DNA of 64,000 nt from Octopus vulgaris. Its lineage: Eukaryota. The stretch lies in assembly GCA_951406725.2 (NCBI GenBank), contig OX597824.1:59210001-59274000 (forward strand), given 5' to 3'. Of the stretch, positions 4,770-63,709 are shown piece after piece; position 1 is the first letter of the stretch; each line of letters begins with the position of its first letter. The notes under the pieces were generated by a model, which did not search any database, was not told the DNA's origin, and was given only the letters and a program-made list of their open reading frames with translations. Position numbers and translations under genes: made by a program.

Positions 4770-5260
4770 TGTGTATGTATGCATATATATATGCCCCAAT
4801 TTCTCTTTTTCTCTCTTTCGTTGCTCAAACGTGACCATCACCCATCTTTCTTTTCGTCACGTGACGGACTTGTCTTCTATCTGTTTCATCTATTTCTTTT
4901 CATTTTATAAAAAAGAATATTTCTCCAAGCATCCACTATTTCCCCTCGTTCTGGTCTAACGGCACTCCATGTGTATTTTCGTTCGGTTTCTTTATATATC
5001 TCCACTGCTCTGTTTTTGTTCTCAAATTTGACCCACTATAAATCAAAAATTTTATATTGGAAATTATAGGAGCTACTGTTTTCGAAGACTCATATTGTCG
5101 TTGAATGCTCGAAATAAGGAGTAGATAGACAACCGACAACTATTGAAGAATCGTTCTTTGTGTTACTTGTCTTGTTATCCATTTCTTTCTCCCGCTGTCT
5201 GCATATTTAACTCGCTTGTTTTTATACTTCATGTCGTTTAAACTTGGTGACGTCATGTAC
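4770..5260 (+). mobile_element. Non-coding repeat family B1 with degenerate reversed-order hammerhead at 5089-5151
   Basis: Homologous to 36010-36610; CTCA-TA-TTGTCG..GCTC-GAAA-TAAG..CGACAA-CTATTGA-AGAAT. Confidence 0.7.
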
Positions 5261-5287
5261 CAATATATGCACACACATATATAAATA

Positions 5288-5345
<58 letters not shown>

Positions 5346-5355
5346 TGTGTGTGTG

Positions 5356-5407
<52 letters not shown>

Positions 5408-5459
5408 TTATGCATATATACATACATATATGTACATATATATGTATATATATATGCAT

Positions 5460-6339
5460 ACATGGGTACTGGATGTCATAGAACGTAAACAACATGAAAT
5501 ACGAAATACGAAAACATGGAATACGAACTTTGTTGCGAACAATGAAAGAAACAAATTGAAAACAAGACAAGCAATATAAAGACAGACTCTTCACCAGTTG
5601 TCGGCGGCTGTTTTTCTACTCCGTATTTCGAGCAATTCACGACAAGATACGCCTTCGACAACACAGTTTCCCCCGCAAAGCAAATTAAACAAAATTTGGG
5701 ATTTTGTGGAGGTTCAAAGCTGGTAAAAAAAAACAGGACAGTGAAAACAAACATAAACAGTTGCTAAGTCTAATGCGTTTGATCCCTGCAAGAATGCGTT
5801 TGATCCCTGCAGCTGATCGGAAGGAAACAAAGAAACTCAAGTTAGGAAAAGAAAGACGGTAGATGGCAACGTGCAATCCACAAGAGAGAAAAGGAGGAAG
5901 AGTGAGGGAGAGAGAGGATCAGACAGAGAACGGCGCAGGGGAGAGAAAAAGTATTGGAGAAAGTATGAGAGAGAAAATAACGAAAGGGTGAGAAGGGGAG
6001 ATAACAAGAATTAGAGAAAGGAAGAGAGAGGAAACTAAAAGGGAAAGGGAAATAGAAATAGAAATAGAACAATAGGGGTCGTATCGAAATTATTAAGATA
6101 AAGCTTACATGGAAATGAATGCGTGGCGTTCAATCATATAACATAAATAATATATATATATATGAATATATACATACCTATATGTACATACTTACATATG
6201 CATATACACATGCATATATGAATATATGAGCACAGGACGTCCTAGAACGTAAACAACATGAAATACGAAATACGTAAACATGGAATTGAAACTTTTTTGC
6301 GAACAAAGAAAGAAACAAATGTAAAACAAGAAAAGCAAC

Positions 6340-8859: not shown

Positions 8860-11400
8860 TCATTCGAACATGTCATATCTACTAGGGCTAATTCTACATA
8901 CCATGCAGTTATCATTGGTACATATGGTATTCTTAAACGGGTAAGTCCTACATAGTTGTGATCTGACGGAGTTACCTGGCTTTTCAACAATTTTAATGTT
9001 GAGTTTGGTCTCCTTCAGAGCTTTTCTAAATCTACGGGCTAGTTCTCCATGGGCTGTGGTCTCTAAAAAACATCACTCCTTGATATTTGTCGGTTTTATA
9101 CCACGTGTTCGCCCTGTTTGCTTTGTCACAAGCTCTTTGTATTCTATTCCATTCTTTGTTTCTATATCTAGGACAGGTACCATTGGTATCATTACGTATA
9201 ATGTTATCTAATTTCTTTCTAGCCCCTCTGTATACACGAACCTTATCTTTCTGATCATATCCAGAGAACTGCATGAGGTGCATGAAGTTCTGTATGTTTT
9301 TTCATTTCATAGGGTTCGCATAGTGGGGACACATTGTTCATTATTCTAACTAGTTCTGCTATTAGTATGTTAATTTTCATGTTGTGTGACAAAGCTGAGT
9401 TCTTGTGAACAACATATTTTGAAGTTATAGGTTTCATGTAATAAGAGTGGAGGAGTTGCACTCTATTGTTCACAGTCCCTAACCAAAGTTCAGTATCAAG
9501 TACAGGGAGTATATTGTTAGGTTTCTTAGTGGGGTAATCTATAGTTACCTTGATACTTTGGTGAATGGAGTTAGCTATTTGCTGGATGCTCTCCATTACG
9601 TTCTTCTCAGTCTCTACATTACCGTCACTAGAGTTGGTTCTAACTATTATATTAATGTCATCTACATATCTACTGTAGAGTAGAAGAGTTGTGGACTGTT
9701 CTGCTAACATTTGTTTAAATTTTCTGTCCCACCAGGTCATGAAGAGGCCAGCCACATCTCCAGCTATACCTACACCAATGGCTGCACCTTGAACCTGTAT
9801 GTATAGTTTTTTATTAAACTTTACTATGTGGTTTTTCAATGTGGTTTTTACGCTGGCCCAAATTGCATATGCAACCATTTCCCTCACCTGATTGTTGTTC
9901 TCAGGGTTTTGGGTGTGTGCGGTCCAGCCACTCCAGCGCTCTGTGGTGCTTTTCTTCACCGCTGAAGTGATGGTGAGTGGTCTTTCCCTCTGCGACCTGG
10001 TGGGGCAGAATTTACTAAGGTCATGGTCATCAAAATAGTTATTGTCATAGCATAGTCTGAGGAGGAGGCCCAGTTCCCTGGTGTTGGCCTTACGGAATTC
10101 CACTTCACTCTCACAGATTGCTTGAATGCATTTCTCCACTGCAAAATCTATGTCTATAGATGGGTAGAGTGAAATTACATCCATACTACCGACTATACAA
10201 CATGTGAGGTTGTTGGTGTGGTTGCAAGTATTGATTTTACTGAGGAGATCTTCCGTACTCATACAGACATCCGGAGACATCTCTATGATAGGTCGCAATA
10301 CTTCTGAGAGGAAGTAGGACAGTCTACAGTTGCTGGAGATGTTCGCTCCGCAAACTGGTCTGGTTGGGGGCCCTGCGACAGTGTTTATGTAGGGTTTTTG
10401 GTCTTTGCGTAACCCGTATAATGTAGGAACATCATTGTTGGATGCCTGGAAATTGTGTGCTGTCCTTTTTGTAGGTTGGAGTATGTTGCACCACATTCCC
10501 ATGTGTGCAATAAGGAGTTTTTCTACTCTTTCATGTTCTTGTGGTGCAACTTCTCTCATGCTACAGATATGTTGTTGCATGGTCTGGATATAGTTCTGTG
10601 GGCTATCTACTGATAGTCTGCCAGACTTGTCTGTGGGGAGGCACACCAATTCTTTGTTCCTAATTCGCTGTTTTAGTTTTTGTAGGCTTTTGTCAACAGA
10701 TGAGCTGAGTTGGTGGGACCCCTCCTCACTGTTTTTTAGTGGATTTGTTGTATTGATCTGTGTCGGAGTCTATTTCTAGCTAAGGAGATCTTTGCTTCTG
10801 TTTCACTGTCAATTTGGGGTGGGATACATACCTTTTTGTTAAAGGGTAAGTCTGTGGGATAGATCCTCGTCATGTCATAAGATTTGTTGTTAGGGCTATA
10901 GAAGACAGAGTGTAGAGTGTTATTATCGTTGTAGTTGTTGTTATAGTTGCCGGTATTGTTGTTGTTGGTGGTGGTAGTGCTTGTGTTGTGCCTATTGTTA
11001 TTGTTATGGGTGACGTTGGTGGTAGTGGTGTGAATGATGTGGTTGTTGTCGTTATCTGTGTGTCGGATGTTGTTGTTATTGTTGCTGTCGTCATCGTTAT
11101 TGTTGTTGTTATTATTATAGTTGTTTCTGTTTCGTACGCTTGTGTTGTTGCTGTTGTTGTTATAGTTATCTGAGTGAGGAATGTTGTGGGTGTCGTTGTT
11201 GTTGTTGTTATTACCCCTATAGTTGTCATCAACACCGCTATTGTTATTGTTGTTGTTTTGGCTACGTATGTTTGTGTTGTTGTTGTTGTTGTTGTTGTAT
11301 TGTCCTAACCTCCATCTTAACTTTAAGAACGTTTTTTTTCAATTTCACACAGACAATCAATTGTCAAGGCTATTGAAAAGGTTGCAAGACGCAACGAAAA
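8860..11400 (-). mobile_element. Penelope-like element remnant (Neptune-like Cys linker, endonuclease truncated)
   Basis: KLRW and AAC-rich N-terminal region, RT ORF, frameshifted thumb (MQFSGY) and KIVEKPG...PF..C..C..C linker. Confidence 0.85.
9255..10649 (-). pseudogene. Penelope-like reverse transcriptase open frame (464 aa, frameshifted near the C-terminus)
   Basis: PTDKSG, LYGLRKD, PPTRPV, SMDVISLYPSI, YIQVQGAAIG, YSRYVDD, LPVLDT, YMKP motifs. Confidence 0.9.
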
Positions 11401-16119: not shown

Positions 16120-16207
16120 TACTTCACCAGGTGTCTTGATTTCGAACCTGGGTTCTCATTCCTAATAATAATAATAATAATAACAACATCGAACATACCG
16201 TTCGATG

Positions 16208-16246
<39 letters not shown>

Positions 16247-22183: not shown

Positions 22184-22325
22184 CAGATAGATTTAAAACA
22201 GAAAGAGGCAAGCCTTAACAGGTCGCCATACATACTAGAAGGAACAGTCAAAAAGTCCAAACCACAGTTAAGAGCAATTTCAAAGGGAATCAAAAATAAA
22301 AACATTTACCATGCTTTACGTACAG

Positions 22326-22393
22326 TCGGACCTTAGGTTTCGAACTTTAATTAGTAAATAAAATAATTTGCAAGGCGAAGTTCTCATCAGCGG
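22326..22393 (-). ncRNA. Type I hammerhead with long helix II
   Basis: cg-CTGATGA-GAACTT...AAGTTC-GAAA-CCTAAGG-TC-cg; helix I short. Confidence 0.65.
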
Positions 22394-22560
22394 ATACGCC
22401 GAAACATTAACATTTAAATTAGAGATAAAATAACATGTGTCTCATTCTTATGTGTACTCTAATTTTTATATGAAAAATATGTCTAATGATGCCTATTGAC
22501 TTTGTATACATGCTAGGCCACTGGCAGAAAAAAAATTTCTGTAATTATTCCTACTCTATA

Positions 22561-25035: not shown

Positions 25036-26439
25036 GTATGTATGCATGTATGTATGTATGTATATGTATATATATGTATGTATATATATGCTCATTTTTT
25101 ATAGTTTAATTTTTCTTAAAGAAAGACTCAATGCCCTTTCCTCCATCTAGCCCACCCATCACCTACCAGCTTTCAAAAAGCTAAAATCTCCCAATCTTTC
25201 ACTTTTGGCTGATGTTTCTCCGCATGCGTAGAATTCTACTGAAATAGCAGACTTAAAAAATACCAGACCACCATCAGACATGCTAGAATCAACAGGTAAA
25301 CAACATTATCTATGAACAAACTTCCCCGTTTTCCAAACAGCTGAAAGTGAAACATTGGGAGTATCTAGCTTTTTGAAAGTGGTGAGATGATGGATAAATT
25401 TCTTTAAAATTCGTACTTTCTATGTATTAGCAAGAATAAAAATTTGAAAAAAGTCGAAAATGAATTTGGTGTGGAGAGGGAGAAAATTAGAATATTGCGA
25501 ACGTATTTTATGGGTGAAATCGTAATCACCTGTATCGCAAGCATAATAATCGGAAGAAATTTAGGAAAAAAATAATAAGATAGGAGAGACGGAAATGTCA
25601 CCTCGGACATGCTAGAAAGAAGAGGTAAAGGACAGAATTCTGGGGAAACTTCCTTTTAAGTTTATATCGAAGATCAGGTTTTTAAATATGCTCATCACAA
25701 ACACAAATTACACAATAGACAAAGATGAAACGATACTCATCTTGTCCATTCCATAGAATAAGAATATACCGGAGAGCTTGATAAGAGGAATGAGTCTGTG
25801 AAACACTTTTATTGTTGTTGTATCGAACACGAATGATAATATTATGATTTTCATGGGGATCACAACCATAAAGATGGCTACTTCATTAGATGTGAGCTCA
25901 TTAAAACAGCGTAAAATGTTCTTAACTATAGTTTACTATAGACGTATGGAACGCAGAAACACACTCATAGAATTGATAATATTGAATACAGCCAAATGTA
26001 CACATACGAAGTTCAAGCGAAACGAAATGTAGTCACTATAGGTGCAAAACATACTTTCTGTAGCATAGTTATTCTATAAAAAATGGAAAATCACCAATTT
26101 AGCAAAAGTTACTATGCGTCACCAATGTAACAAAGTACAGAAAGTCAACATTTATTTGGAAAACGTACTAAATGTTATAAAATTTACGATTGAATGTCAC
26201 AGTGAAGAAAGTGAAAGTCCAAGAAAATTCAGAAGGCATAATTCAATTTTTCATACAAAAATAATTTATTTTACAATTTTGAAATACGCTGAACCAAGTG
26301 TATAAAAAGGAAGATGCTGTTGTTGTGAATGTTAATTTAAAATATTTGCTGAAGGATTTGTGTAGCAAGATATAAATTAATTTGACATTACTATATATTT
26401 TTGAAGTGTGTAATGTTATAGGCTGTAGAATAAACACTG

Positions 26440-27310
26440 ACTAACGCAGTAAAAAGGCTAAAACGAAGAAGGGTAAGGTCCAGATACTTCACTCTCATTA
26501 TGCCAAACCCATGGCCTCTAAGTACCTTGTTCAACATTCTGATAGCTGACTTGGTGAGGGTGATGGGGAATGTGTCTCGCATGTACGGCCTTATGGAATT
26601 GGAAAGACACATACAACCTTTTATCCACCGCATGCAGTTCCCTGGCTATAACCGAAGGGACAGGATTAAGGTGTAAAAATAAGTCAGGATTAATTGCAAC
26701 ACCATCATAGAGAGTGTTGCTAAGGGGATCTTCCCGCTGTACAGGAGTAGATCTTGGAACAGCACGGAAAGGAACAGTAATAAGATAAATAAGCTCAACA
26801 TTTATCAGTGTCATGTTCGTTGATGTTACCCCGGCGGCGAATTATCACACCTTTTTAGAAAAACCATTATGGCTTATCTACGAAATAAAGTAGTAGAGAG
26901 GCCTGGTGCCCCTTTAAAATCCCCGATCTGCAATACCTATCCCTTTGGTAAGTCTCCCTGTACGGAGTACAATTGTGTTGTAGGTAGGACGAACCCACCG
27001 GTTAACTGTAAGGTTAGGAATGTAGTGTATAGCTTACGATGTACTGAGGGACGGCACAGAAACATGACAGCTACCTACATTGGAGAGACTGCACGCAGCA
27101 TAGGAGAGCGTATAGGTGTCCATTCGCTAGAGCTCAAACAAGGGAAAAGTTCGTCAATGCTCTACCAACATGCTCGATTAATAGCATAAAGGTTAAAGTA
27201 CTATCGACACATAGAACTGACACGATACTTAGGTTACAGAAGCTACACACATAACAGTAGACAGACCGATCCTCAATAGAAAATACGAATGGAACAGTAA
27301 CACCCACCAC
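26440..27310 (+). mobile_element. Penelope-like element 3' remnant (thumb, Cys linker, GIY-YIG endonuclease)
   Basis: FNILIADLVRVMGNVS, HRMQFPGY, KVVERPG, CKVRNVVYSLRC...TYIGETARSIGERIGVH; homologous to the 8860-9450 region. Confidence 0.88.
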
Positions 27311-28542
27311 TACACTACACCACACCACATGACTAAAGACAGTAGGGATGAGAAGAAAGAAAGAAAAGGGAAAGAAGCGTAGATAATACACAGAAACATA
27401 CAGTGTAATACACGCACAATGAACATATATGCACTTACCTGTGATACTTGTGAAAAATAGAGATAGATGTATAAAATAAAGAAATAAAGAAATATATAAC
27501 TAGATAAATAAATATATCTGTCACATACCTGTGATAAATTTAAAACAGAAATAAAAATTATATAAAAGGCCACATACGAAGCGAACCCATACACACCCAT
27601 GAAAATTCATGGACGGCCATAACAATGTCAACAACTCAACTAACACGGTCAGCAGCAGCGGCGGTGCCAACAATGGCAATAACAACAACAACGACTACCG
27701 CGATGGTAGCGCCATAGACGAACAGTATACAGGAATACGCAGAGGGATACAGGAACTGTATCATATTTATTTTCGGGTCTTAGGACAGTGGCGGCACAAT
27801 GAGGTGAGAGGATGTGGCTGAGGAGAAGGCCACACTGCTGCTAAAAAACTATGACACACACACATGCACTCAAACAAGGACACAAATGCATGTGCACAGA
27901 AGGTTAAACATCTTAGAAGAACAGAATAGAGTATGTGGAGCAAGAACACACAAGAAAACGAAAAGTGTCTCTAAAGAGGTCACAGATGTGCGACGACAGA
28001 TTTCCGGACAATGGACATGAGTTAGAATAATAAAATAAGAACAGTAATAAACGAGTGAGGAGAAAAATATATAGTGCGTGTGTTTATTTGGCAAAAAAAA
28101 ATTTAAATTACCATCCCCCGAAATACAACAATATATATATCAAGGAAGAGAGGAAAATACATATTCACATGCATATTCTGTGTGATTTTGTGGTCAAGCT
28201 GTACGACACGATTACATTTCTTTGAATAACACACTTCATTTCAGGGTGCTTCAATTTAATCAACTTTAAATGAGGACCAGCTAGCGAAGTGGTTCATACT
28301 TCTTTTCCTCCAGCAGTCAGATCCTGAATGATACGCAGTGTTAAGACTTGGAGAGCAGGAAAAAGTGTTTATTTCTGTTTGCTATTGATGGACACCTAAA
28401 CATCTAAAACAATTGACGAAAGTGTGGAACCCTACCGTAAGGAAACCGGTCGTACTCACTTATGAGTAACGACAGTTATACATTTTTACACACACTCACA
28501 CTAACACGTACACTCATATTTGCATTATTTAATAACCGCTTA

Positions 28543-29339: not shown

Positions 29340-29541
29340 TATAATGTTAAATAAAAACAATTCCTGCTAAATACAGTTTACTAGGAGTTCCGTAATCGAA
29401 ACATTAATTTATTTTGCCATTTTTCAAACTGTGGACAGACCTATACTCAGCTTGAAAAATGGCAAAATAAATTAATGTTTCAACCAGAAAATGCTGGGTA
29501 GCTATATTTAAGAAGAATTGCGGTTTTTATTACAACATTAT
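29340..29541. repeat. Foldback/palindrome
   Basis: Perfect 30-bp arms gaaacattaatttattttgccatttttcaa / ttgaaaaatggcaaaataaattaatgtttc with weaker outer arms. Confidence 0.85.
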
Positions 29542-31028: not shown

Positions 31029-31661
31029 TCAGGTTGAGTAAAAAGTAAGCAGCGTTTTGAGCAATGAAGAATATGTACCGGGTTTTTGAAGAGTTTTGAA
31101 TCTTTTAAATATTTTTTTGCAATTTTTTGATAATACAGACAAAGACTAGCCCAAATGCTTCAATAAAATAGCATAGGTATTTTTTTCACCGTTGTTACAA
31201 TAATCTGAAATGGAACAGTCAAAGCGCGATATTCGAGAAATTTTGTTGTTCAACTTCAAAAAAGGACGTAAAGCAGCTGAAACTGCTAGCAATATCAATG
31301 AAACGTTTGGTGAGGAAATGACTAGTGAGTGGTCAGCTCGAAAGTGCTTTGAGCGATTTTGCAGTGGAGACCTGAGTCTTGAAGATCGTGAGCATAGTGA
31401 ATGCCCATCTGTAATCGATGAAGGTCAATTAAAGACCGTCATTAAGAAAGATCCATGTAAAACCACACGAGAACTGGCAAAAGAACTTCCAGTTAACCAG
31501 AAAACTGCTTGCAACCATTTGCAATAAACAAACTTGTAACTCGTTGCAAATTGCGTTGATTTTAATGGTACTTACTTTGATGAATAAAATTTCCGCATTG
31601 TTGAAATATACTGTGATGAGATTCATGTTTCAAAACGTTGCTTACTGTTTAATCAGCATGA
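31029..31661 (+). mobile_element. Internally deleted mariner element with TIRs and TA flanks
   Basis: TIR tcaggttgagtaaaaagtaagcagcgttttga and its imperfect inverse at the right end; ORF 31210-31527 encodes a mariner N-terminal HTH (IREILLFNFKKG...F.SGDLSLED). Confidence 0.88.
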
Positions 31662-31756
31662 TATAAACAACAGAACCTCGGTTTTCGAACAACTCTGATC
31701 ACGAATAAATCGTGCTTTATATATATATATCTATATCTATCTATCTATTTATTTAT

Positions 31757-31885
<129 letters not shown>

Positions 31886-31889
31886 AAGT

Positions 31890-32445
31890 ACGATTTATTC
31901 GTGATTAGAGTTGTTCAAAAACCGAGGTACTACTGTATACATATTCTCTCTCTCACTCTTCCTCCTTTGCTCTCTCGTGGCTCCCACGCGAGCGTCGGCC
32001 ATGTTTCTGTCTTTCCTTAACTTATGTTTCTTTCCTTCTGATTCACATGGACGAGTCAGGCGCATCCTTGTCTGTCTCATATTCAAGCCTGCTTCTCCGC
32101 GTTCGCCACCTCATCTCGTTTAGGCTTAGCAGCCCTTCCTGTTTATTTCACTCTCTTGTTTTGGTTACCAAATTTGGCCCTCCGCAAAAAAACAAATTTT
32201 ATTGAATTTGCTTTGCAGGAGCAACTGTTTACCGAAGGCGTATCTTGTCGTTGAATTGCTCGAAATACAGATTAAGAAAACAGCCGACAACTAATGAAGA
32301 GTCGTTCGTTATGTTGCTTGTCTTGGTTTCCATTTGTTTCTTTGGTTGCACGCAAAAAAGTTCATATTCCATGTATTCGTATTTTTTATTTCATATTTAC
32401 GTATTTTATGTTGTCTATGTTCTGTGACGTCCTGAACGCACATAT
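31890..32445 (+). mobile_element. Non-coding repeat family B2 with reversed-order hammerhead at 32239-32302
   Basis: CGTA-TC-TTGTCG ttgaatt GCTC-GAAA-TACA ... CGACAA-CTAATGA-AGAGT; homologous to 5460-5720. Confidence 0.7.
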
Positions 32446-33365: not shown

Positions 33366-33423
<58 letters not shown>

Positions 33424-33427
<4 letters not shown>

Positions 33428-33945
33428 TAGTTATCGCCAAGCTAACATGGCAGTCCAGTAAAATAGGACGAATGCTGCCGTTGATTATCTCCGAGAGGCC
33501 ATCGCTTCTAGCCAGCTATGTGACACATGAACCTGTGTCCATTATAACCTTCGAACAGAGGAGGTCAGCCGCTTCCCCTTGCTTGTCAGGCCACCACAGT
33601 CTAGTTTTGGGGTATATGCTACTTATCAATGTAGAGCAGCCGAATCGTCTGTTCGAAGGATTATTTATCTAAATTCAATGGAATACATCCTCTGGAATAC
33701 ATCCACTAGTAGATGCCTGATCAGTAAGGGAAAGCGGCTGACCTCCCTGTTCGAAGGTTATAATGGACATAGGTTCGTGAGTCACGTAGCTAGCTAGAGG
33801 CGATGGCCTCTTAGAGCTAATCAACGGCAGCATTCGTCCTATTTTCCTGGACTGCAATGTTAGCTTGGCGATGACTATTAAATATCCAGTACCGCTGCCG
33901 TAGTCTCCTTCAGAGAGACTTAGAAATATTAGTATTTCTATTATT
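33424..33945. mobile_element. Foldback copy of the U3-A8 hammerhead element family
   Basis: Arms about 33424-33590 and about 33710-33882; homologous to the 52593 unit; decayed HHR on the minus strand at about 33594-33634 (TTGATAA core). Confidence 0.8.
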
Positions 33946-33965
33946 TATATATATATATAAATATT

Positions 33966-34081
33966 TCTTCTGTTGGCCTGCTCGCTTAGCCAGCGGGGTG
34001 GCGTCATTTGAAGGCTAAAACAATGCGAAGCGCATTGTGACCAGCGATGTGTAGCAACAACTGATAGCCTGGTCGGTCACA

Positions 34082-34177
<96 letters not shown>

Positions 34178-34191
34178 ATATAATAAATAAA

Positions 34192-34250
<59 letters not shown>

Positions 34251-34833
34251 TGTGACCGACCAGGCTATCAGATGTTGCTAGACATCGCTGGTCATAATGC
34301 GCTCCGCATTGTTTTAGCCTTCAGATGACGCCATCCCGCTGGCTAAGCGAGCAGGCCAACAGAAGAAAGAGTGAGAGAAAGTTGTGGCGAAAGAGTACAG
34401 CAGGGACCGCCACAACCCCATGCCAGAGCCTCGTGGGGCTTTTAGGCATTTTCGCTCAATAAACACTCACAACGCCCGGTCTGGGAATCGAAATCACGAT
34501 CTTACGACCGCGAGTCCGCTGCTCTAACCACTGGGCCATTGTGCCTCCACCGTGATCACGTGACCGACCAGACCATCAGACGCTGTTACACATCGCTGGT
34601 CACAATGCATTCGCATTGTTTTAGCCTTCGAGTGACGCCACCCCGCTGGCTAAGCGAGCAGGCCAACAGAAGAAAGAGTGGGAGAAAGAGTGGTGAAAGA
34701 GTACAGCAGGGATCACCACCTCCTACCGGAGCCTTGTGGAGCTTTTAGGTGTTTTCGCTCAATAAACACTCACAACGCCCGGTCTGGGAATCGAAACCGC
34801 GATACATACAAGTATGCATGTATGTATGTGTAT

Positions 34834-38440: not shown

Positions 38441-38445
<5 letters not shown>
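37640..38445 (-). mobile_element. Non-coding repeat family D with reversed-order hammerhead at 37750-37815
   Basis: Minus strand GCAA-TC-TCAA..aggc-GAAA-TTGT ... TTGA-CTGAGGA-taaaa-GGCT. Confidence 0.7.
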
Positions 38446-38484
<39 letters not shown>

Positions 38485-38696
38485 AATATAGGATAAAATT
38501 TTTCGAAAACAATTTTATCAATGGCCAGCATATTAAAAAATACCTTTAACGGTTAAATTTATAAACGAGGGCAAAAGAAAAAATTTCTAATGCCAAATAT
38601 GCCAAAATTAGACACATCGTCCATAACCATATAATTCATCACTATAAGCACGCGTCTCGAAGAAAGCCGACAGAAGTTTCTTAAAAAATTCCGTTA

Positions 38697-38757
38697 TTAC
38701 CATATCGGACCCGATTTCAGAGTTAATTCTTAAGAACCTTCTCTTCGTCAGTGATAA
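38697..38757 (-). ncRNA. Type I hammerhead ribozyme, intact core
   Basis: TTATCA-CTGACGA-AGAG...CTCT-GAAA-TCGGgtCCGA-TA-TGGTAA. Confidence 0.82.
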
Positions 38758-39020
38758 ATGCGGCAAAGAAATAAATGAAATACTCACTTATAGCCATGGA
38801 AGAAGCAAATAATAACGGTAATAACGGAATTCTTTTGAAATTCTGTCGGCTTTCTTCGAGACGCGTGCTTATAGTGATGAATTATATGGTTATGGACGAT
38901 GTGTCTAGCTTCGGCATATTTGGAATTAATTTTTTTTTTCTTTTGCCCTTGTTTATAAGTTGTTTATAAATTTAACCTTTAAAGGCGCAGGAGTGGCTGT
39001 GTGGTAAGTAGCTTGCTAAC

Positions 39021-41350
39021 ACACATGCGCAATTAGTCAGTTGCTTCCTGTTGAGCCAGAGTGGACGTGAGTCAAACAGCTCCGTCCAATTATAGAAAAA
39101 AGACCACAAACAGAGGGTTGTCGAGGTGAGTGATTTTGTTTATTGTGAGTTGGGCACAATTTATTGCGTGCTAATTATTATTTCAGTAAGTTGTGTCCAA
39201 CTCTGAGACAATTTCGCCTGCTCTCGGCGGCTGCTTTGTTTTTGTGTTTATTGGGAAAAAAAAACAGTTGAGGGGCGTATCCTCGGAACCCAATACAGTT
39301 ACTGTTAAAATTACCGTTGGCGGTAGCCAGTGCTGTGTTTGGGTTTGTTGAATTTATTCCCTTGTCAGAGTACTTCGCAAGAAAATTATAAAAATAAGCC
39401 ACTTTTGTATTACCTTTCGGATCCATTTTTGTGGAGGTTGTGTTACAGTTGCGGCGTTCCAGGTTCAACTCAGGTCGGGAGTACCGTAAGGCCAGAAGAT
39501 TTTTGCTGTGTTTTTTCTGTTTATTAACTTTCTTTTGAACTTCATTTAACTCCCCCTTTTGTTTTTTTGTTTATTGCGACTTTCCGTTGATTTCTTCCCT
39601 TCTATTGTGCTTTCTTCTTTTTGTTTTTTCAAAAATCTATCAAATTTTATTTGAACTTTTGAACTTTTTTCTTCTCGCTTTTTAAGTTTAATTTGAATAT
39701 ATTTAAAAAAAAAAAAAAAAAAAAAAAAACATGGCAATGAAAAATGACAAAATTTTGGAATGGGAGATCATACCGCCTAAAAAGTGGTTAAAAGACCGTG
39801 AAGATAGGACGGTGGTGTTGAGAACCTACTCCAAGGCACTCGACACCATCGCCCTATTCGAAAAGACGGCAATTGAAAAGGAGTTGGCAGAGTATTTGCC
39901 AACAATTAAATTCATTTCCAGGGGTGTCAAATATGCAACGGTGTGGTTGCTATTTGACACCCCTGAAGAGGCTTGCAAATTTGCTAGCAAACCCCTGGAG
40001 GGTAAGGAAATTTTATTCCTGCCCACGTACCAAAAAAAGAGACTGACGAAAGCTTGGATTTGCGGGCTGCCACCCGGGATAGAACCCGAGTGGATAGAGG
40101 AGACTATCCGCCGGGGTCTGGGTAGCAGCGAAACTAAGCTCCTTAATGTAAAAGTTCTTCCTGCGGCTGCTTGGGTTGGGTCAAAAGCAATTTTGATCCT
40201 TTGGACCCAATCAGCCAATCTGGTTCTTCCAGATTTTTTGAAAATGGCCGGGTGCAGGTACCCGGTGATGCTTGAGGGTCGCCCCCCTAAGTGTCATCGG
40301 TGCTTGGAGTCCGGCCATATAAAGAAGAACTGTCCCGGGGAACAAAATAGGATCCCGGAACAGCTAAGTGAAACCCCTGTAGAAGAGGGAATGATAACGG
40401 CCGAGGAAGCAGAGGACTCCTCAAACAGAGGCCGAAAGAGGAAGGTGAGCAACAATGGGTGCTCACCAAAGGATACTAGGGATGAGGAGGGAAAGGCGAA
40501 TCTTCCGGCCACGGAGGAGACGCACCCTCCCTCAGTTGAAAAGAAAAAAAAGAAAAAGAGGAAGAGGAAGAGAAACGGGACATTACCGGCTGTCGGTGAC
40601 ATAGCACCGGAATGTCCCGGAACTACGTCGGTTGGGGTTGTGCCACCGACAGGAGAAGAAATACCGTTGGCGGGAACTGTGCCGCCAACGAAAGAATTGA
40701 ATATCCCGCACCCGAACAAAAACGAGGTATTGATCCTCTTCTATAGAGGCGGAGAGATTGAAAAGGTGATAGAAAAGCACCACAAGGGAGCACCTTTAGC
40801 CTTCACACAGGACCCCAAATGGCCTCCGCAGGTAGCTGTGGAGGCCGTGGCGTTCGACGTGACGCTTGGGCTGAAGGAGCTCAATGAGGATTATAGCTTG
40901 GTCCCGGGCGACGCTAACTCGGAACTCGATTACGTTCTGAGGGAGGCGTGGTGGATGGTGGAGGGCGCGGACACAAGTTATTTCGAGGACGAGTCAAATT
41001 GTGATACGACTTGAGGGGCCCCGACCTAGAGCTGGCGCATTCCTAAGGAAAGTATAAGCCAGGTCTGGGAGGAGGGGCTTTGTGTATTGTATTTATATAT
41101 GTAATTATTGAACTATGTTGTTATTAGTAATGGACTGCTAAGTCCAAAAATTGAAAAAATTGTAATACCTCGTTTTGTGTTTGTTTTTAAAAGAACAATG
41201 TTTTAGAGAAACAGAAGTCGGCGGGCGCTTTTTGTCTTCTCCCATCCCCATCATCTTTCTTTCATTATCATTCACTTCATTAATGTCCTCGTCCAGCCCG
41301 CAAAGCTAACTTACTCTATGTACTGCCTTTATGGCAAATGTTATGAAATA
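39021..41350 (+). mobile_element. ORF1-only non-autonomous L1/Tx1-like retroelement with 15-bp TSD
   Basis: aagtagcttgctaac at 39006-39020 and 41351-41365; about 710-bp 5' UTR, single ORF, 3' UTR ending in AATAAA; no RT or endonuclease. Confidence 0.85.
39731..41014 (+). CDS. Gag-like/ORF1 nucleic-acid-binding protein with CCHC zinc knuckle, 427 aa
   Basis: Intact ATG-to-stop ORF; GRPPKCHRCLESGHIKKNCP (CX2CX4HX4C); RRM-like N-terminal half; basic KKKKKKRKRKR stretch. Confidence 0.85.
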   Translation: MAMKNDKILEWEIIPPKKWLKDREDRTVVLRTYSKALDTIALFEKTAIEKELAEYLPTIKFISRGVKYATVWLLFDTPEEACKFASKPLEGKEILFLPTYQKKRLTKAWICGLPPGIEPEWIEETIRRGLGSSETKLLNVKVLPAAAWVGSKAILILWTQSANLVLPDFLKMAGCRYPVMLEGRPPKCHRCLESGHIKKNCPGEQNRIPEQLSETPVEEGMITAEEAEDSSNRGRKRKVSNNGCSPKDTRDEEGKANLPATEETHPPSVEKKKKKKRKRKRNGTLPAVGDIAPECPGTTSVGVVPPTGEEIPLAGTVPPTKELNIPHPNKNEVLILFYRGGEIEKVIEKHHKGAPLAFTQDPKWPPQVAVEAVAFDVTLGLKELNEDYSLVPGDANSELDYVLREAWWMVEGADTSYFEDESNCDTT

Positions 41351-41503
41351 AAGTAGCTTGCTAACCAACCACATGGTTCAGGGTTCAGTCCCACTGCGTG
41401 GCATCTTGGTCAAGTGTCTTCTGCTATAGCCCCGGGCCGACCAATGCCTTGTGAGTGGATTTGGTAGACGGAAACTGAAAGAAGCCTGTCGTATATATGT
41501 ATA

Positions 41504-41597
<94 letters not shown>

Positions 41598-41921
41598 TGT
41601 GTTTGTCCCCCTAGCATTGCTTGACAACCGATGCTGTTGTGTTTATGTCCCCGTTACTTAGCGGTTCGGCAAAAGAGGCCGATAGAATAAGTACTGGGCT
41701 TACAAAAGAATAAGTCCCGGGTCGATTTGCTCGATTAAAGGCGGTGCTCCAGCATGGCCACAGTCAAATGACTGAAACAAGTAAAAGAGTAAAAGAGTAA
41801 AAGAGTAAAGGTACTTTTTAATATGCTGGCCATTGATAAAAATTTTTTCGAAAACTTTTATCCTATATTAGATGTAAATTTAATAGTTTTCACTTCCGTA
41901 CTCTCTCCCTCTCCAACATTG

Positions 41922-51980: not shown

Positions 51981-52758
51981 AGTAACGATAAATGAAGAAA
52001 ATATTTCCAATTATAATTAAAAAGATTACACTCATAAGGAACGTACATCCAGCCATTTCATCTGCATATATCCATTGCACCCATTCAGAGATATCAACAA
52101 TATAAATCTCAAAGAAATAATTTGCAACGTTCCAGCTTATAGAGATGTGGCTTCGATGACCTTCTAGACAAAACTTCAACAACGAAAGAAGTAAATGTAT
52201 AAACATAAAAAGAAAATTAAGCTCATTTCGGATATTAAGCAAAAACGCCATGCTTGACTAGTAAAAATTGCCCCCTGGCGAGTTAACGCCATCATATACT
52301 TAACCTAAATATCAACTCTGAAATCGTACATTTATGTTTAAAACTAATAATGCTGAAATTTATAGAAATACGCACGCACACACACACACACACGCGCGCA
52401 CTCAAACGTACACAAGCAAATGCACACTCAGATAAAAATACATTTATGCGTATTTGAACCTGTATATTGTATGCTATGTATACACAAACATGTGTGTTCG
52501 TATATGTGTGTGCGCGTATGTGTAAATCATCCATCAATATATATATGTATATATATATACACACACATATACATATATATACATATATATATATAGTTAT
52601 CGCCATACTAATATGGCATTCTTATAAAAATAAGAATAAAGCTGTCCGCTTATTAGCTCCATGAGGCCATCGCTTTAAGTTAGCTATTTGATACACAAAC
52701 TGTATCCATATAACCTTCGAACAAGGGAGGTCAGTCGCTCCACACTACTTGATCGACA

Positions 52759-52800
52759 GCTACAGACGCGTTTCGGGGTATTGCCCCTTTTCAATGTAGC
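52759..52800 (-). ncRNA. Type I hammerhead, U3-A8 core variant
   Basis: GCTACA-TTGAAAA-GGGG caata CCCC-GAAA-CGCG-TC-TGTAGC. Confidence 0.8.
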
Positions 52801-53120
52801 GTAGTCAGACCAGTAGGTGTCGCTTCTGACAATCTCTGTTCGAAGGTTTTATTTACCTAGTTTCAGTGGAATACATCCACTTGTTTTCAATAATAGAAAT
52901 ATTAAAATTACTAAGTCTCTCTAAAAGAGATCACGGCAGCGTTCCTGGAAAATAATAGTTATCGCCATACTAATATGGCATTCTTATAAAAATAAGAATA
53001 AAGCTGTCCGCTTATTAGCTCCATGAGGCCATCGCCTTAAGTTAGCTATTTGATACACAAACTGTATCCATATAATCTTCGAACAAGGGAGGTCAGTCGC
53101 TCCACACTACTTGATCGACA

Positions 53121-53161
53121 GCTACAGACGCGTTTCGGGGTATTGCCCCTTTTCAATGTAG
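53121..53161 (-). ncRNA. Type I hammerhead, U3-A8 core variant (second copy)
   Basis: Same motif 362 bp away; adjacent 10-bp deletion. Confidence 0.78.
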
Positions 53162-53536
53162 ACCAGTAGGTGTCGCTTCTGACAATCTCTGTTCGAAGGT
53201 TTTATTTACCTGTAGCTGTCGATCAAGTAGTGTGGAGCGACTGACCTCCCTTGTTCGAAGGTTATATGGATACAGTTTGTGTATCAAATAGCTAACTTAA
53301 GGCGATGGCCTCATGGAGCTAATAAGCGGACAGCTTTATTCTTATTTTTATAAGAATGCCATATTAGTATGGTGATAACTATTATTTTCCAGGAACGCTG
53401 CCGTGATCTCTTTTAGAGAGACTTAGTAATTTTAATATTTCTATTATTGAAAACAAGTGGATGTATTCCACTGAAACTAGGTAAATAAAACCTTCGAACA
53501 GAGATTGTCAGAAGCGACACCTACTGGTCTGACTAC

Positions 53537-53578
53537 GCTACATTGAAAAGAGGCAATACCCCGAAACGCGTCTGTAGC
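53537..53578 (+). ncRNA. Type I hammerhead, U3-A8 core variant (third copy)
   Basis: GCTACA-TTGAAAA-GAGG caata CCCC-GAAA-CGCG-TC-TGTAGC; predicted cleavage after 53572. Confidence 0.78.
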
Positions 53579-53790
53579 TGTCGATCAAGTAGTGTGGAGC
53601 GACTGACCTCCCTTGTTCGAAGGTTATATGGATACAGTTTGTGTATCAAATAGCTAACTTAAGGCGATGGCCTCATGGAGCTAATAAGCGGACAGCTTTA
53701 TTCTTATTTTTATAAGAATGCCATATTAGTATGGCGATAACTATTATTTTCCAGGAACGCTGCCGTGATCTCTTTTAGAGAGACTTAGTA

Positions 53791-53877
<87 letters not shown>

Positions 53878-62363: not shown

Positions 62364-62367
<4 letters not shown>

Positions 62368-62525
62368 AATATAATATGTGACAATTATTCGGTAGCTATG
62401 ATAAAACTCCGAGTTTTGGATACCGAGGTGGAAATCCACGCTGCCATCTCTTCAGTTATCTCTTCCACCTCGGCATCCGGAGTTTTATCATGGCTACCGA
62501 ATAATTCTCACGTATTATATTTACA
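62364..62525. repeat. Foldback with a decayed minus-strand type I hammerhead at 62400-62460
   Basis: Arms tgtaaatataatatgtgacaattattcggtagctatgataaaactcc and inverse; GATAA-CTGAAGA...AAAA-CTCgGAG-TT-TTATC. Confidence 0.7.
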
Positions 62526-63224: not shown

Positions 63225-63709
63225 TGATAATGATAATAACTATTATCATGGTTATTATTATTATCATTCTTCTTCTTCTTCTTCTTCTTCTTCTTCTTCT
63301 TCTTCTTCTTCTTCTTCTTCTTCTTCTTCTTCTTCTCATTATTATCATTATTATTATTATTATTATTATGAAGAAGAAGAAGAAGAAGAAGAAGAAGAAG
63401 AAGAAGAAGAAGAAGAAGAAGAAGAAGAAGAAGAAGAAGGAGAAGAAGAAGAAGGAGAAGGAGAAGGTAAAGAAGGAGAAGGAGAAGGTAAAGAAGAAGA
63501 AGAAGAAGAAGAAGAAGAAGAAGAAGAAGAAGAAGACGAAGAAGGAGAAGAAGAAGAAGAAGAAGAAGAAGAAGAAGAAGAAGAAGAAGAAGAAGAAGAA
63601 GGAGAAGGAGAAGGTAAAGAAGGAGAAGGAGAAGGTAAAGAAGAAGAAGAAGAAGAAGAAGAAGAAGAAGAAGAAGAAGAAGAAGAAGAAGAAGAAGAAG
63701 AAGAAGAAA
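63225..63709. repeat. Head-to-head (TTC)n and (AAG)n tracts with higher-order variant units
   Basis: Direct reading. Confidence 0.9.

What the first reader, a model, noticed from the sequence alone, without database searches (positions are those of the whole stretch)
38482..38985. Independent foldback whose second arm also starts at its HHR cleavage site
The minus-strand HHR (38697-38757) would cleave before TGGTAATAACGGAATT, and the inverted arm begins at about 38816 with cGGTAATAACGGAATT. An unrelated sequence family thus follows the same rule as the 52593 array, suggesting a general mechanism that makes genomic palindromes from self-cleaved RNAs.
Basis: partly seen in the sequence, partly recalled or inferred. 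Interest (0 to 1): 0.7.

Follow-up and report, generated by a model that had tools for sequence, protein, structure and literature searches.

The report
Ribozyme-cut junction in Penelope retroelement palindrome
A roughly 560-base genomic palindrome is likely a head-to-head pair of Penelope-like retroelement fragments, and its second arm begins within 1-3 bases of a predicted hammerhead-ribozyme cut site, which would be a DNA record that these ribozymes cut the RNA that gets copied into the genome.

Summary
Observation confirmed. A minus-strand type I hammerhead motif lies at 38697-38757 (the only strict hit in 64 kb), with predicted cut before 38702. The inverted arm starts at 38817, one base past the cut (three if a 9-nt junction duplication arose later). 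The arm is longer than reported: nested insertions split it and it ends at 41872, flush with the other arm. The layout (3' end on (TA)n, head-to-head 5'-truncated copies, palindromic stem III) is the known inverted arrangement of Penelope-like elements (PLEs); two PLE RT/endonuclease remnants lie in the window, and the host looks octopus-like. So this is not a new palindrome-making mechanism. What I found in no paper I could search is the junction sitting at the cut site. It holds in 3 of 4 hammerhead-bearing foldbacks here (38.5k, 52.6k, newly 33.4k; fails at 62.4k; a doubtful fifth also fails), 2 of 3 families; chance about 0.002-0.003, but only 1 of 2 out-of-sample. Best model: two cDNAs primed on opposite strands, one running off a ribozyme-cleaved RNA, joined by microhomology. 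Cleavage is untested; no genome-wide test was possible.

The parts
38444..38481 (.). (TA)n microsatellite, likely insertion target, abutting the 3' end of the left copy
   Evidence: sequence; TRF
38482..38816 (-). Left copy: about 335 nt, runs through the hammerhead and ends 114 nt upstream of the cut; that 38758-38816 is element sequence is inferred (no second copy to check)
38697..38757 (-). Type I hammerhead motif; predicted cut between 38703 and 38702; stem III near-palindromic, predicted to favour a dimer (-15.0 kcal/mol intermolecular against -1.3 as a hairpin)
38810..38827 (+). Junction with a tandem 9-nt duplication; uses only sequence from the first 12 nt after the cut
38817..38985 (+). 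Right copy, proximal part; starts at +2 after the predicted cut; carries an 11-nt tandem duplication at 38949-38969
38986..41805 (+). Later nested insertions that split the right copy: SINE-like repeat (38986-39020 and 41351 onward, followed by microsatellite and a second repeat to 41805; flanking 6-nt duplication 38980-38985 / 41806-41811), itself split by a 2.3-kb piece (39021-41350, 15-nt duplication 39006-39020 / 41351-41365) with a 427-aa ORF
41806..41872 (+). Right copy, distal part; ends at the same base as the left copy
52593..53794 (.). Comparison locus: head-to-head tandem 362-nt monomers with U3-A8 hammerheads; arm 2 starts at the cut (53211, inside a 2-nt microhomology) and has a 50-nt longer 3' end; arms 527 of 531 identical
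33419..33945 (.). Comparison locus found here: older member of the 52.6k family with its own junction; degenerate hammerhead (core 33629, cut before 33598); arm 2 identity starts at +2 (33709); about 64-nt longer 3' end
62364..62525 (.). Counter-example: foldback with degenerate hammerhead (core 62455, cut before 62404); arm 2 starts in stem II, about 29 nt upstream of the cut

Best explanation
The locus is a pair of inverted copies joined head to head next to a (TA)n repeat, likely a non-autonomous Penelope-like (PLE) retroelement insertion, in which one copy was likely reverse-transcribed from an RNA already cut by its own predicted hammerhead ribozyme. Steps: (1, inferred) element RNA exists in uncut and cut forms, cutting probably needing a dimer or protein help; (2, inferred from PLE biochemistry) a PLE RT-endonuclease supplied in trans nicks both strands of an AT-rich target and primes a cDNA on each, starting about 220 nt downstream of the ribozyme; (3, inferred) one cDNA reads through an uncut ribozyme and stops 114 nt beyond it, the other runs off the 5' end of a cut RNA; (4, inferred) the two cDNA ends are joined through 1-3 nt of microhomology or a template jump, losing the first base and here leaving a 9-nt duplication; (5, shown by flanking duplications) SINE-like and other insertions later split the right arm. 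Shown: geometry, motif, offsets, nested insertions.
For: Arm 2 begins at +2 or +4 (38.5k), -1 to +2 (52.6k) and about +2 (33.4k) relative to the predicted cut. Under uniform truncation, 2 or more hits in 3 families has probability 0.0016 (5-nt window) to 0.0032 (7-nt window); 3 or more of 4 loci 4e-5 to 1e-4. 33.4k and 52.6k have different left-arm end points, so are separate events. In both, arm 2 is 50-64 nt longer at its 3' end than arm 1, so arm 2 is not a plain copy of arm 1 and matches the PLE 'tail'. Two PLE RT/GIY-YIG remnants are in the window (8878-10912 minus, 26478-27355 plus). Literature: inverted 5'-truncated copy, tail and (TA)n bias (PMC8557442 passages); palindromic stem III, U3-A8 core and opposite-strand motif pairs 100-700 bp apart in PLEs (PMC4209133); a PLE protein cleaves and extends both strands, is predicted dimeric and has two internal RT starts (PMC11167929).
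Against: 62.4k fails, and 29.4k fails if its motif is real. Two of the three hits were used to frame the rule; out of sample it is 1 of 2 (chance 0.07-0.09). At 38.5k itself the arms end flush, so a single folded-back cDNA is not excluded there. No ORF or second copy ties the 38.5k sequence to a PLE. Rfam does not recognise the motif; the ribozyme fold is 1.2 kcal/mol above the local minimum and absent from the minimum-energy fold of the whole copy. PMC11167929 found cleavage unnecessary for insertion in vitro and no RNA-seq ends at the cut. The uniform-truncation null is an assumption.
Confidence: 0.6

Rival explanations
1. Same element and two-cDNA geometry, but the cDNA ends there because RT stalls at the folded, dimerised or protein-bound hammerhead (or at the ligation scar of a circular RNA), without a free cut end.
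For: The stem III palindrome begins 2 nt upstream of the cut and is predicted to form a -15 kcal/mol intermolecular duplex; the PAc ribozyme is protein-assisted and uncut RNA was the dominant substrate in vitro.
Against: RT would already have read through stem I (and, in the 52.6k monomer, a long predicted rod) before stopping; 52.6k arm 2 passes one ribozyme cleanly and stops only at the second. Starts lie at or just downstream of the cut, as a free end predicts.
Confidence: 0.15
2. One nucleic acid strand folded back and primed on itself (the self-priming model of PMC3846280), guided at 38.5k by the 9-nt match between 38810-38818 and 38691-38699; nearness to the cut is incidental or due to stem I.
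For: The 9-nt inverted match exists; 38.5k arms end flush; the 62.4k junction has this palindromic look; PMC3846280 argues for self-priming from palindromic junctions.
Against: At 33.4k and 52.6k arm 2 is longer than arm 1, which needs extra trimming; spacers of 83-115 nt run well past stem I, so stem I is not the priming hairpin; 52.6k has only a 2-nt microhomology.
Confidence: 0.14
3. Ordinary random 5' truncation of PLE copies; the coincidence is chance plus selection by the reader.
For: Only four testable loci, three families; 1 of 2 out of sample; two of the four ribozymes are degenerate and were placed by eye and by alignment.
Against: 0.002-0.003 for 2 of 3 families; 52.6k is exact and 99% identical between arms, so not blurred by decay.
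Confidence: 0.08
4. A MITE or other DNA transposon with long terminal inverted repeats that happens to contain a hammerhead-like string.
For: The two arms end at the same base at 38.5k.
Against: Motif is the top hit in 64 kb; comparable loci have unequal ends and tandem monomers; no target duplication seen at the outer ends.
Confidence: 0.03

Closest known systems
Penelope-like elements with inverted pLTR (Penelope/Poseidon, Neptune; PMC8557442 Fig. 2 legend, PMC3846280)
   Same: Head-to-head 5'-truncated copy, type I hammerhead with palindromic stem III near the 3' end of the insertion, microsatellite target, one-sided tail at the two comparison loci.
   Different: No RT-endonuclease ORF at this locus; the papers seen do not place the inverted junction at the ribozyme cut; no tail demonstrable at 38.5k.
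Metazoan non-LTR retrozymes (PMC7229834; bioRxiv 10.64898/2026.07.22.740005)
   Same: Non-coding, type I hammerhead, AT-rich, proposed PLE-mobilised; the 52.6k locus has 362-nt tandem monomers, within the 350-390 bp reported for mussel.
   Different: 38.5k has no tandem repeat; in term searches 'inverted' did not occur in the main text of PMC7229834 and only in a reference title of the preprint; circular RNA not testable here.
R2/L1Tc 5' ribozymes (HDV-like; PMC6765202, PMC7761336 passages) and L1 twin priming (recalled, no call)
   Same: Ribozyme cut sets the 5' end of a copied RNA; two target-primed cDNAs joined by microhomology give an inversion.
   Different: Different ribozyme and enzyme; L1 twin priming inverts part of one RNA without making a palindrome, whereas here the same segment is copied twice, implying two templates or two passes.

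Membership tests
Type I hammerhead ribozyme | Core CUGANGA / GAAA / NUH with stems I-III | tested here: met
   intact core, 6-bp stem I, 4-bp stem II, stem III, AUA triplet
Type I hammerhead ribozyme | Match to an Rfam hammerhead model | tested here: not met
   no hammerhead among 3 matches at E<=10; likewise none at 52600-53790
Type I hammerhead ribozyme | Self-cleavage at the predicted site | not testable with these tools
   needs an assay
Autonomous Penelope-like element | ORF with PLE RT and GIY-YIG endonuclease | tested here: not met
   tblastn of 120 PLE-type proteins hits only 8878-10912 and 26478-27355, not this locus
PLE-derived non-autonomous insertion (pLTR fragment) | Type I hammerhead with palindromic helix III near the 3' end | tested here: met
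   definition from PMC4209133
PLE-derived non-autonomous insertion (pLTR fragment) | Inverted 5'-truncated copy joined at the 5' end | tested here: met
PLE-derived non-autonomous insertion (pLTR fragment) | Microsatellite / AT-rich target | tested here: inconclusive
   (TA)n on the left; right end is followed by about 30 nt unassigned sequence and another repeat
PLE-derived non-autonomous insertion (pLTR fragment) | One-sided 30-40 nt tail | tested here: inconclusive
   arms flush at 38.5k; 50 and about 64 nt extensions at 52.6k and 33.4k
PLE-derived non-autonomous insertion (pLTR fragment) | Sequence homology to the pLTR of an ORF-bearing PLE | not testable with these tools
   no eukaryotic genome collection on hand; none within the window
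Non-LTR retrozyme | Tandem monomers each with a type I hammerhead | tested here: not met
   38.5k is a single partial unit; met at 52.6k
Non-LTR retrozyme | Expressed as circular RNA | not testable with these tools
   no expression data

The most novel reading that the evidence does not exclude
Across unrelated PLE and retrozyme families in this octopus-like genome, the inverted copy is routinely a run-off cDNA from ribozyme-cleaved RNA, joined to a second cDNA primed on the opposite strand. Genomic palindromes would then be a base-precise fossil record of in vivo hammerhead cleavage and of two-template, sense-strand integration, answering what PLE hammerheads do and letting cut sites of unknown ribozymes be read from DNA.
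Probability: 0.45. Interest if true: 0.72.

Novelty: new variant of a known kind. Interest (0 to 1): 0.5.

Why it matters
The role of hammerheads in Penelope-like elements is called unclear (PMC8557442) and a mystery (PMC7761336), and the one reconstituted PLE did not need cleavage in vitro (PMC11167929). How the head-to-head copies form is also open, with antisense self-priming proposed (PMC3846280). A junction at the sense-strand cut gives a cheap genome-wide test of both questions, with dead-core subfamilies as a built-in control.

Tried and rejected
Rfam scans: no hammerhead at 38.5k or 52.6k; only a weak HH9 match at 22310-22404 (13.5 bits, E 2.1); the listed part of the whole-window scan (150 of 328 rows shown) was microsatellite noise. 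Folding z-scores were not discriminating (6 of 7 folds with z between -0.7 and +0.5). A MAFFT alignment of 10 motif candidates was uninformative. Stem I self-priming rejected because spacers run past stem I. Microsatellite-centred inverted repeats (5077/5663, 31661/31942, 33964/34368) and SINE pairs (37167/37618, 57705/59634) were left out of the count because the arms flank a repeat or are far apart. Foldbacks at 16163-16231 and 25156-25393 have no motif in any scan and are untestable. Solo motifs 2691, 11373, 17750, 22390, 53998 show no inverted partner. No search for homologous DNA elsewhere: the open collections are prokaryotic, phage or plasmid; metagenome and viral contigs were closed, so other copies of the family stayed unchecked. 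Arkhipova 2017 (Terminons) and Lunse 2017 were not held; older PLE papers (2005, 2006) were not read.

Full report
CHECK OF THE OBSERVATION. The minus strand at 38697-38757 carries a complete type I hammerhead motif: 6-bp stem I (38757-38752 with 38702-38697), core CUGACGA, a stem II with an inner hairpin, GAAA, a near-palindromic stem III and an AUA triplet, with the predicted cut before 38702. A strict descriptor found 1 such motif in the 64 kb and 3 in 30 shuffled windows. With the U3-A8 core allowed, 5 cores were found against 7 in 30 shuffles, and the 38751 motif scored highest, 36 against a best shuffled score of 31 in 10 shuffles. Results against: Rfam returns no hammerhead here, the folding z-score is -0.68, the ribozyme fold is -9.2 against -10.4 kcal/mol for the local minimum, and it is absent from the minimum-energy fold of the whole copy. 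Stem III is predicted far more stable as an intermolecular duplex (-15.0) than as a hairpin (-1.3). The inverted repeat pairs 38543-38701 with 38817-38985 (145 of 157 aligned positions). In register, identity begins at the second base after the cut. A 9-nt tandem duplication spans the junction (38810-38827), so the original start was +2 or +4.

TRUE EXTENT. The right arm does not end at 38985. It resumes at 41806-41872, 63 of 67 identical to 38482-38548, and ends at the same base as the left arm. Between lie a SINE-like repeat with many copies in the window, flanked by a 6-nt duplication, and within it a 2.3-kb piece flanked by a 15-nt duplication that holds a 427-aa ORF with a weak zinc-knuckle match (E 0.0073, below cut-off). 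The original insertion was therefore about 335 nt (minus) plus about 220 nt (plus), 5' ends joined, 3' ends facing out, the left one on (TA)n. No other copy of this family is in the window, and it has no similarity to the 52.6k family.

CONTEXT. The window is rich in microsatellites and repeats. The ORF at 9255-10769 (minus) is a reverse transcriptase with a DKSG motif, followed after frameshifts by a CxxxxCxxC linker; 26478-27355 is a second remnant with a GIY-YIG-like end. The best of 125 homologues is a named Octopus vulgaris protein at 61% identity. These features fit Neptune-type Penelope-like elements as described in PMC8557442 (passages) and PMC3846280; I built no tree. The host is inferred to be octopus-like; PLEs are a recognised, recently active class in O. 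vulgaris (PMC13282606 passages). A tblastn of 120 of the homologues hits only those two places, not the foldback.

TEST OF THE RULE. Self-BLAST gives seven short-range foldbacks that are not centred on a microsatellite and are not SINE pairs: 16163, 25156, 29341, 33419, 38482, 52593, 62364. Four have a readable hammerhead. 52.6k: 362-nt tandem monomers with a U3-A8 core, a variant reported in Schistosoma PLEs (PMC4209133); arm 2 starts at the cut inside a 2-nt microhomology. 38.5k: +2 or +4. 62.4k: degenerate ribozyme placed by eye; arm 2 starts about 29 nt upstream of the cut, in stem II, then has a 7-nt deletion; a miss. 29.4k has a motif without a valid cleavage triplet (loose pattern, 0.13 expected per shuffled window); if real it is a second miss, by about 40 nt. 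16.2k and 25.2k have no motif. So 3 of 4 (3 of 5 with the doubtful one), 2 of 3 families. Assuming uniform truncation, 2 or more of 3 families has probability 0.0016-0.0032, but the out-of-sample result is 1 of 2 with chance 0.07-0.09. That both misses have broken cores fits the model but is after the fact, and 33.4k also has a broken core today.

MECHANISM. At 33.4k and 52.6k the left arms end at nearly the same point and the arm that starts at the cut is about 64 and 50 nt longer. A copy of arm 1 cannot be longer than arm 1, so two separately primed cDNAs are favoured, unless arm 1 was trimmed during integration, as PMC8557442 suggests for tails. The anole PLE protein cleaves and extends both target strands, is predicted to be a dimer, and starts RT at two internal sites that bound the tail (PMC11167929, parts 1-2 of 4). 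I therefore commit to two target-primed cDNAs, one from uncut RNA and one running off a cut RNA, joined through short microhomology or a template jump (0.6). All enzymatic steps are inferred. At 38.5k alone the arms are flush and a 9-nt inverted match exists, so foldback self-priming (PMC3846280, parts 2-4 of 5) remains open; RT stalling at the folded ribozyme cannot be told from cleavage by sequence. PMC11167929 reports that cleavage was not needed in vitro and that no RNA-seq reads ended at the cut, which counts against a required role.

WHAT IS KNOWN. [quoted passage not shown] Retrozymes are proposed non-autonomous PLE derivatives (bioRxiv 10.64898/2026.07.22.740005, part 1 of 5 and passages; PMC7229834 passages). 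The ribozyme's role is described as unknown (PMC7761336 passages). In ten full-text searches and the texts above, plus passages of PMC6431247, PMC8969392, PMC6765202 and PMC8490949, I found no statement that the inverted junction falls at the cut. This is limited: Arkhipova 2017 and Lunse 2017 were not held, subscription papers are missing, the three text supplements of PMC11167929 gave no hit but its supplementary figures were not seen, and preprint supplements were closed. L1 twin priming is recalled, not read.

VERDICT. Real feature; works like a PLE head-to-head insertion; not an autonomous PLE and not by itself a tandem retrozyme; PLE ancestry of this sequence is likely but not shown by homology. 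New variant of a known kind; interest 0.5, because it makes an open question testable on few loci.

Noticed in passing
window 8878-10912 (-) and 26478-27355 (+): Two broken Penelope-like RT / GIY-YIG remnants with a Neptune-type cysteine linker; the first has an (AAC)n-rich, Asn-rich N-terminal region like the N-rich inserts described in rotifer PLEs.
   Followed up: partly
window 11373 (+): U3-A8 hammerhead-like motif with a 5-bp stem II, lying head to head with the PLE ORF remnant and ending on (TA)n at about 11551; may be its inverted pLTR.
   Followed up: partly
window 52890 (-) / 53447 (+): A second hammerhead-like module (U3-A8 core, 6-bp stem II, poor stems I and III) inside the 362-nt monomer; the left arm of the 52.6k foldback has its 5' end 2-4 nt from this module's notional cut.
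   Followed up: partly
window 2691 (+), 53998 (+), 17750 (+), 22390 (-): Solo minimal or HH9-like hammerhead motifs, each about 70-160 nt upstream of a microsatellite, with no inverted partner.
   Followed up: partly
window 39021-41350 (+): 2.3-kb insertion with a 15-nt target duplication and one intact 427-aa ORF (39731-41014, weak zinc knuckle, no RT): possibly an ORF1-only retroelement.
   Followed up: no
window 5077-5663, 31661-31942, 33964-34368: Inverted repeat pairs flanking a central microsatellite, a different geometry from the foldback studied; the 5077 family has further copies at 6166, 32120 and 36118 with a possible decayed hammerhead.
   Followed up: no
window 29341-29541: Foldback whose plus arm holds a U3-A8 core, 3-bp stem II and 6-bp stem I but no valid cleavage triplet.
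   Followed up: partly
window 16163-16231 and 63268-63440: Tiny palindromes made largely of triplet microsatellites that switch strand at the centre, (TAA)n...(TTA)n and (TTC)n...(GAA)n.
   Followed up: no
window 33680-33708: A 12-nt near-tandem duplication next to the 33.4k junction, echoing the 9-nt duplication at the 38.5k junction.
   Followed up: partly
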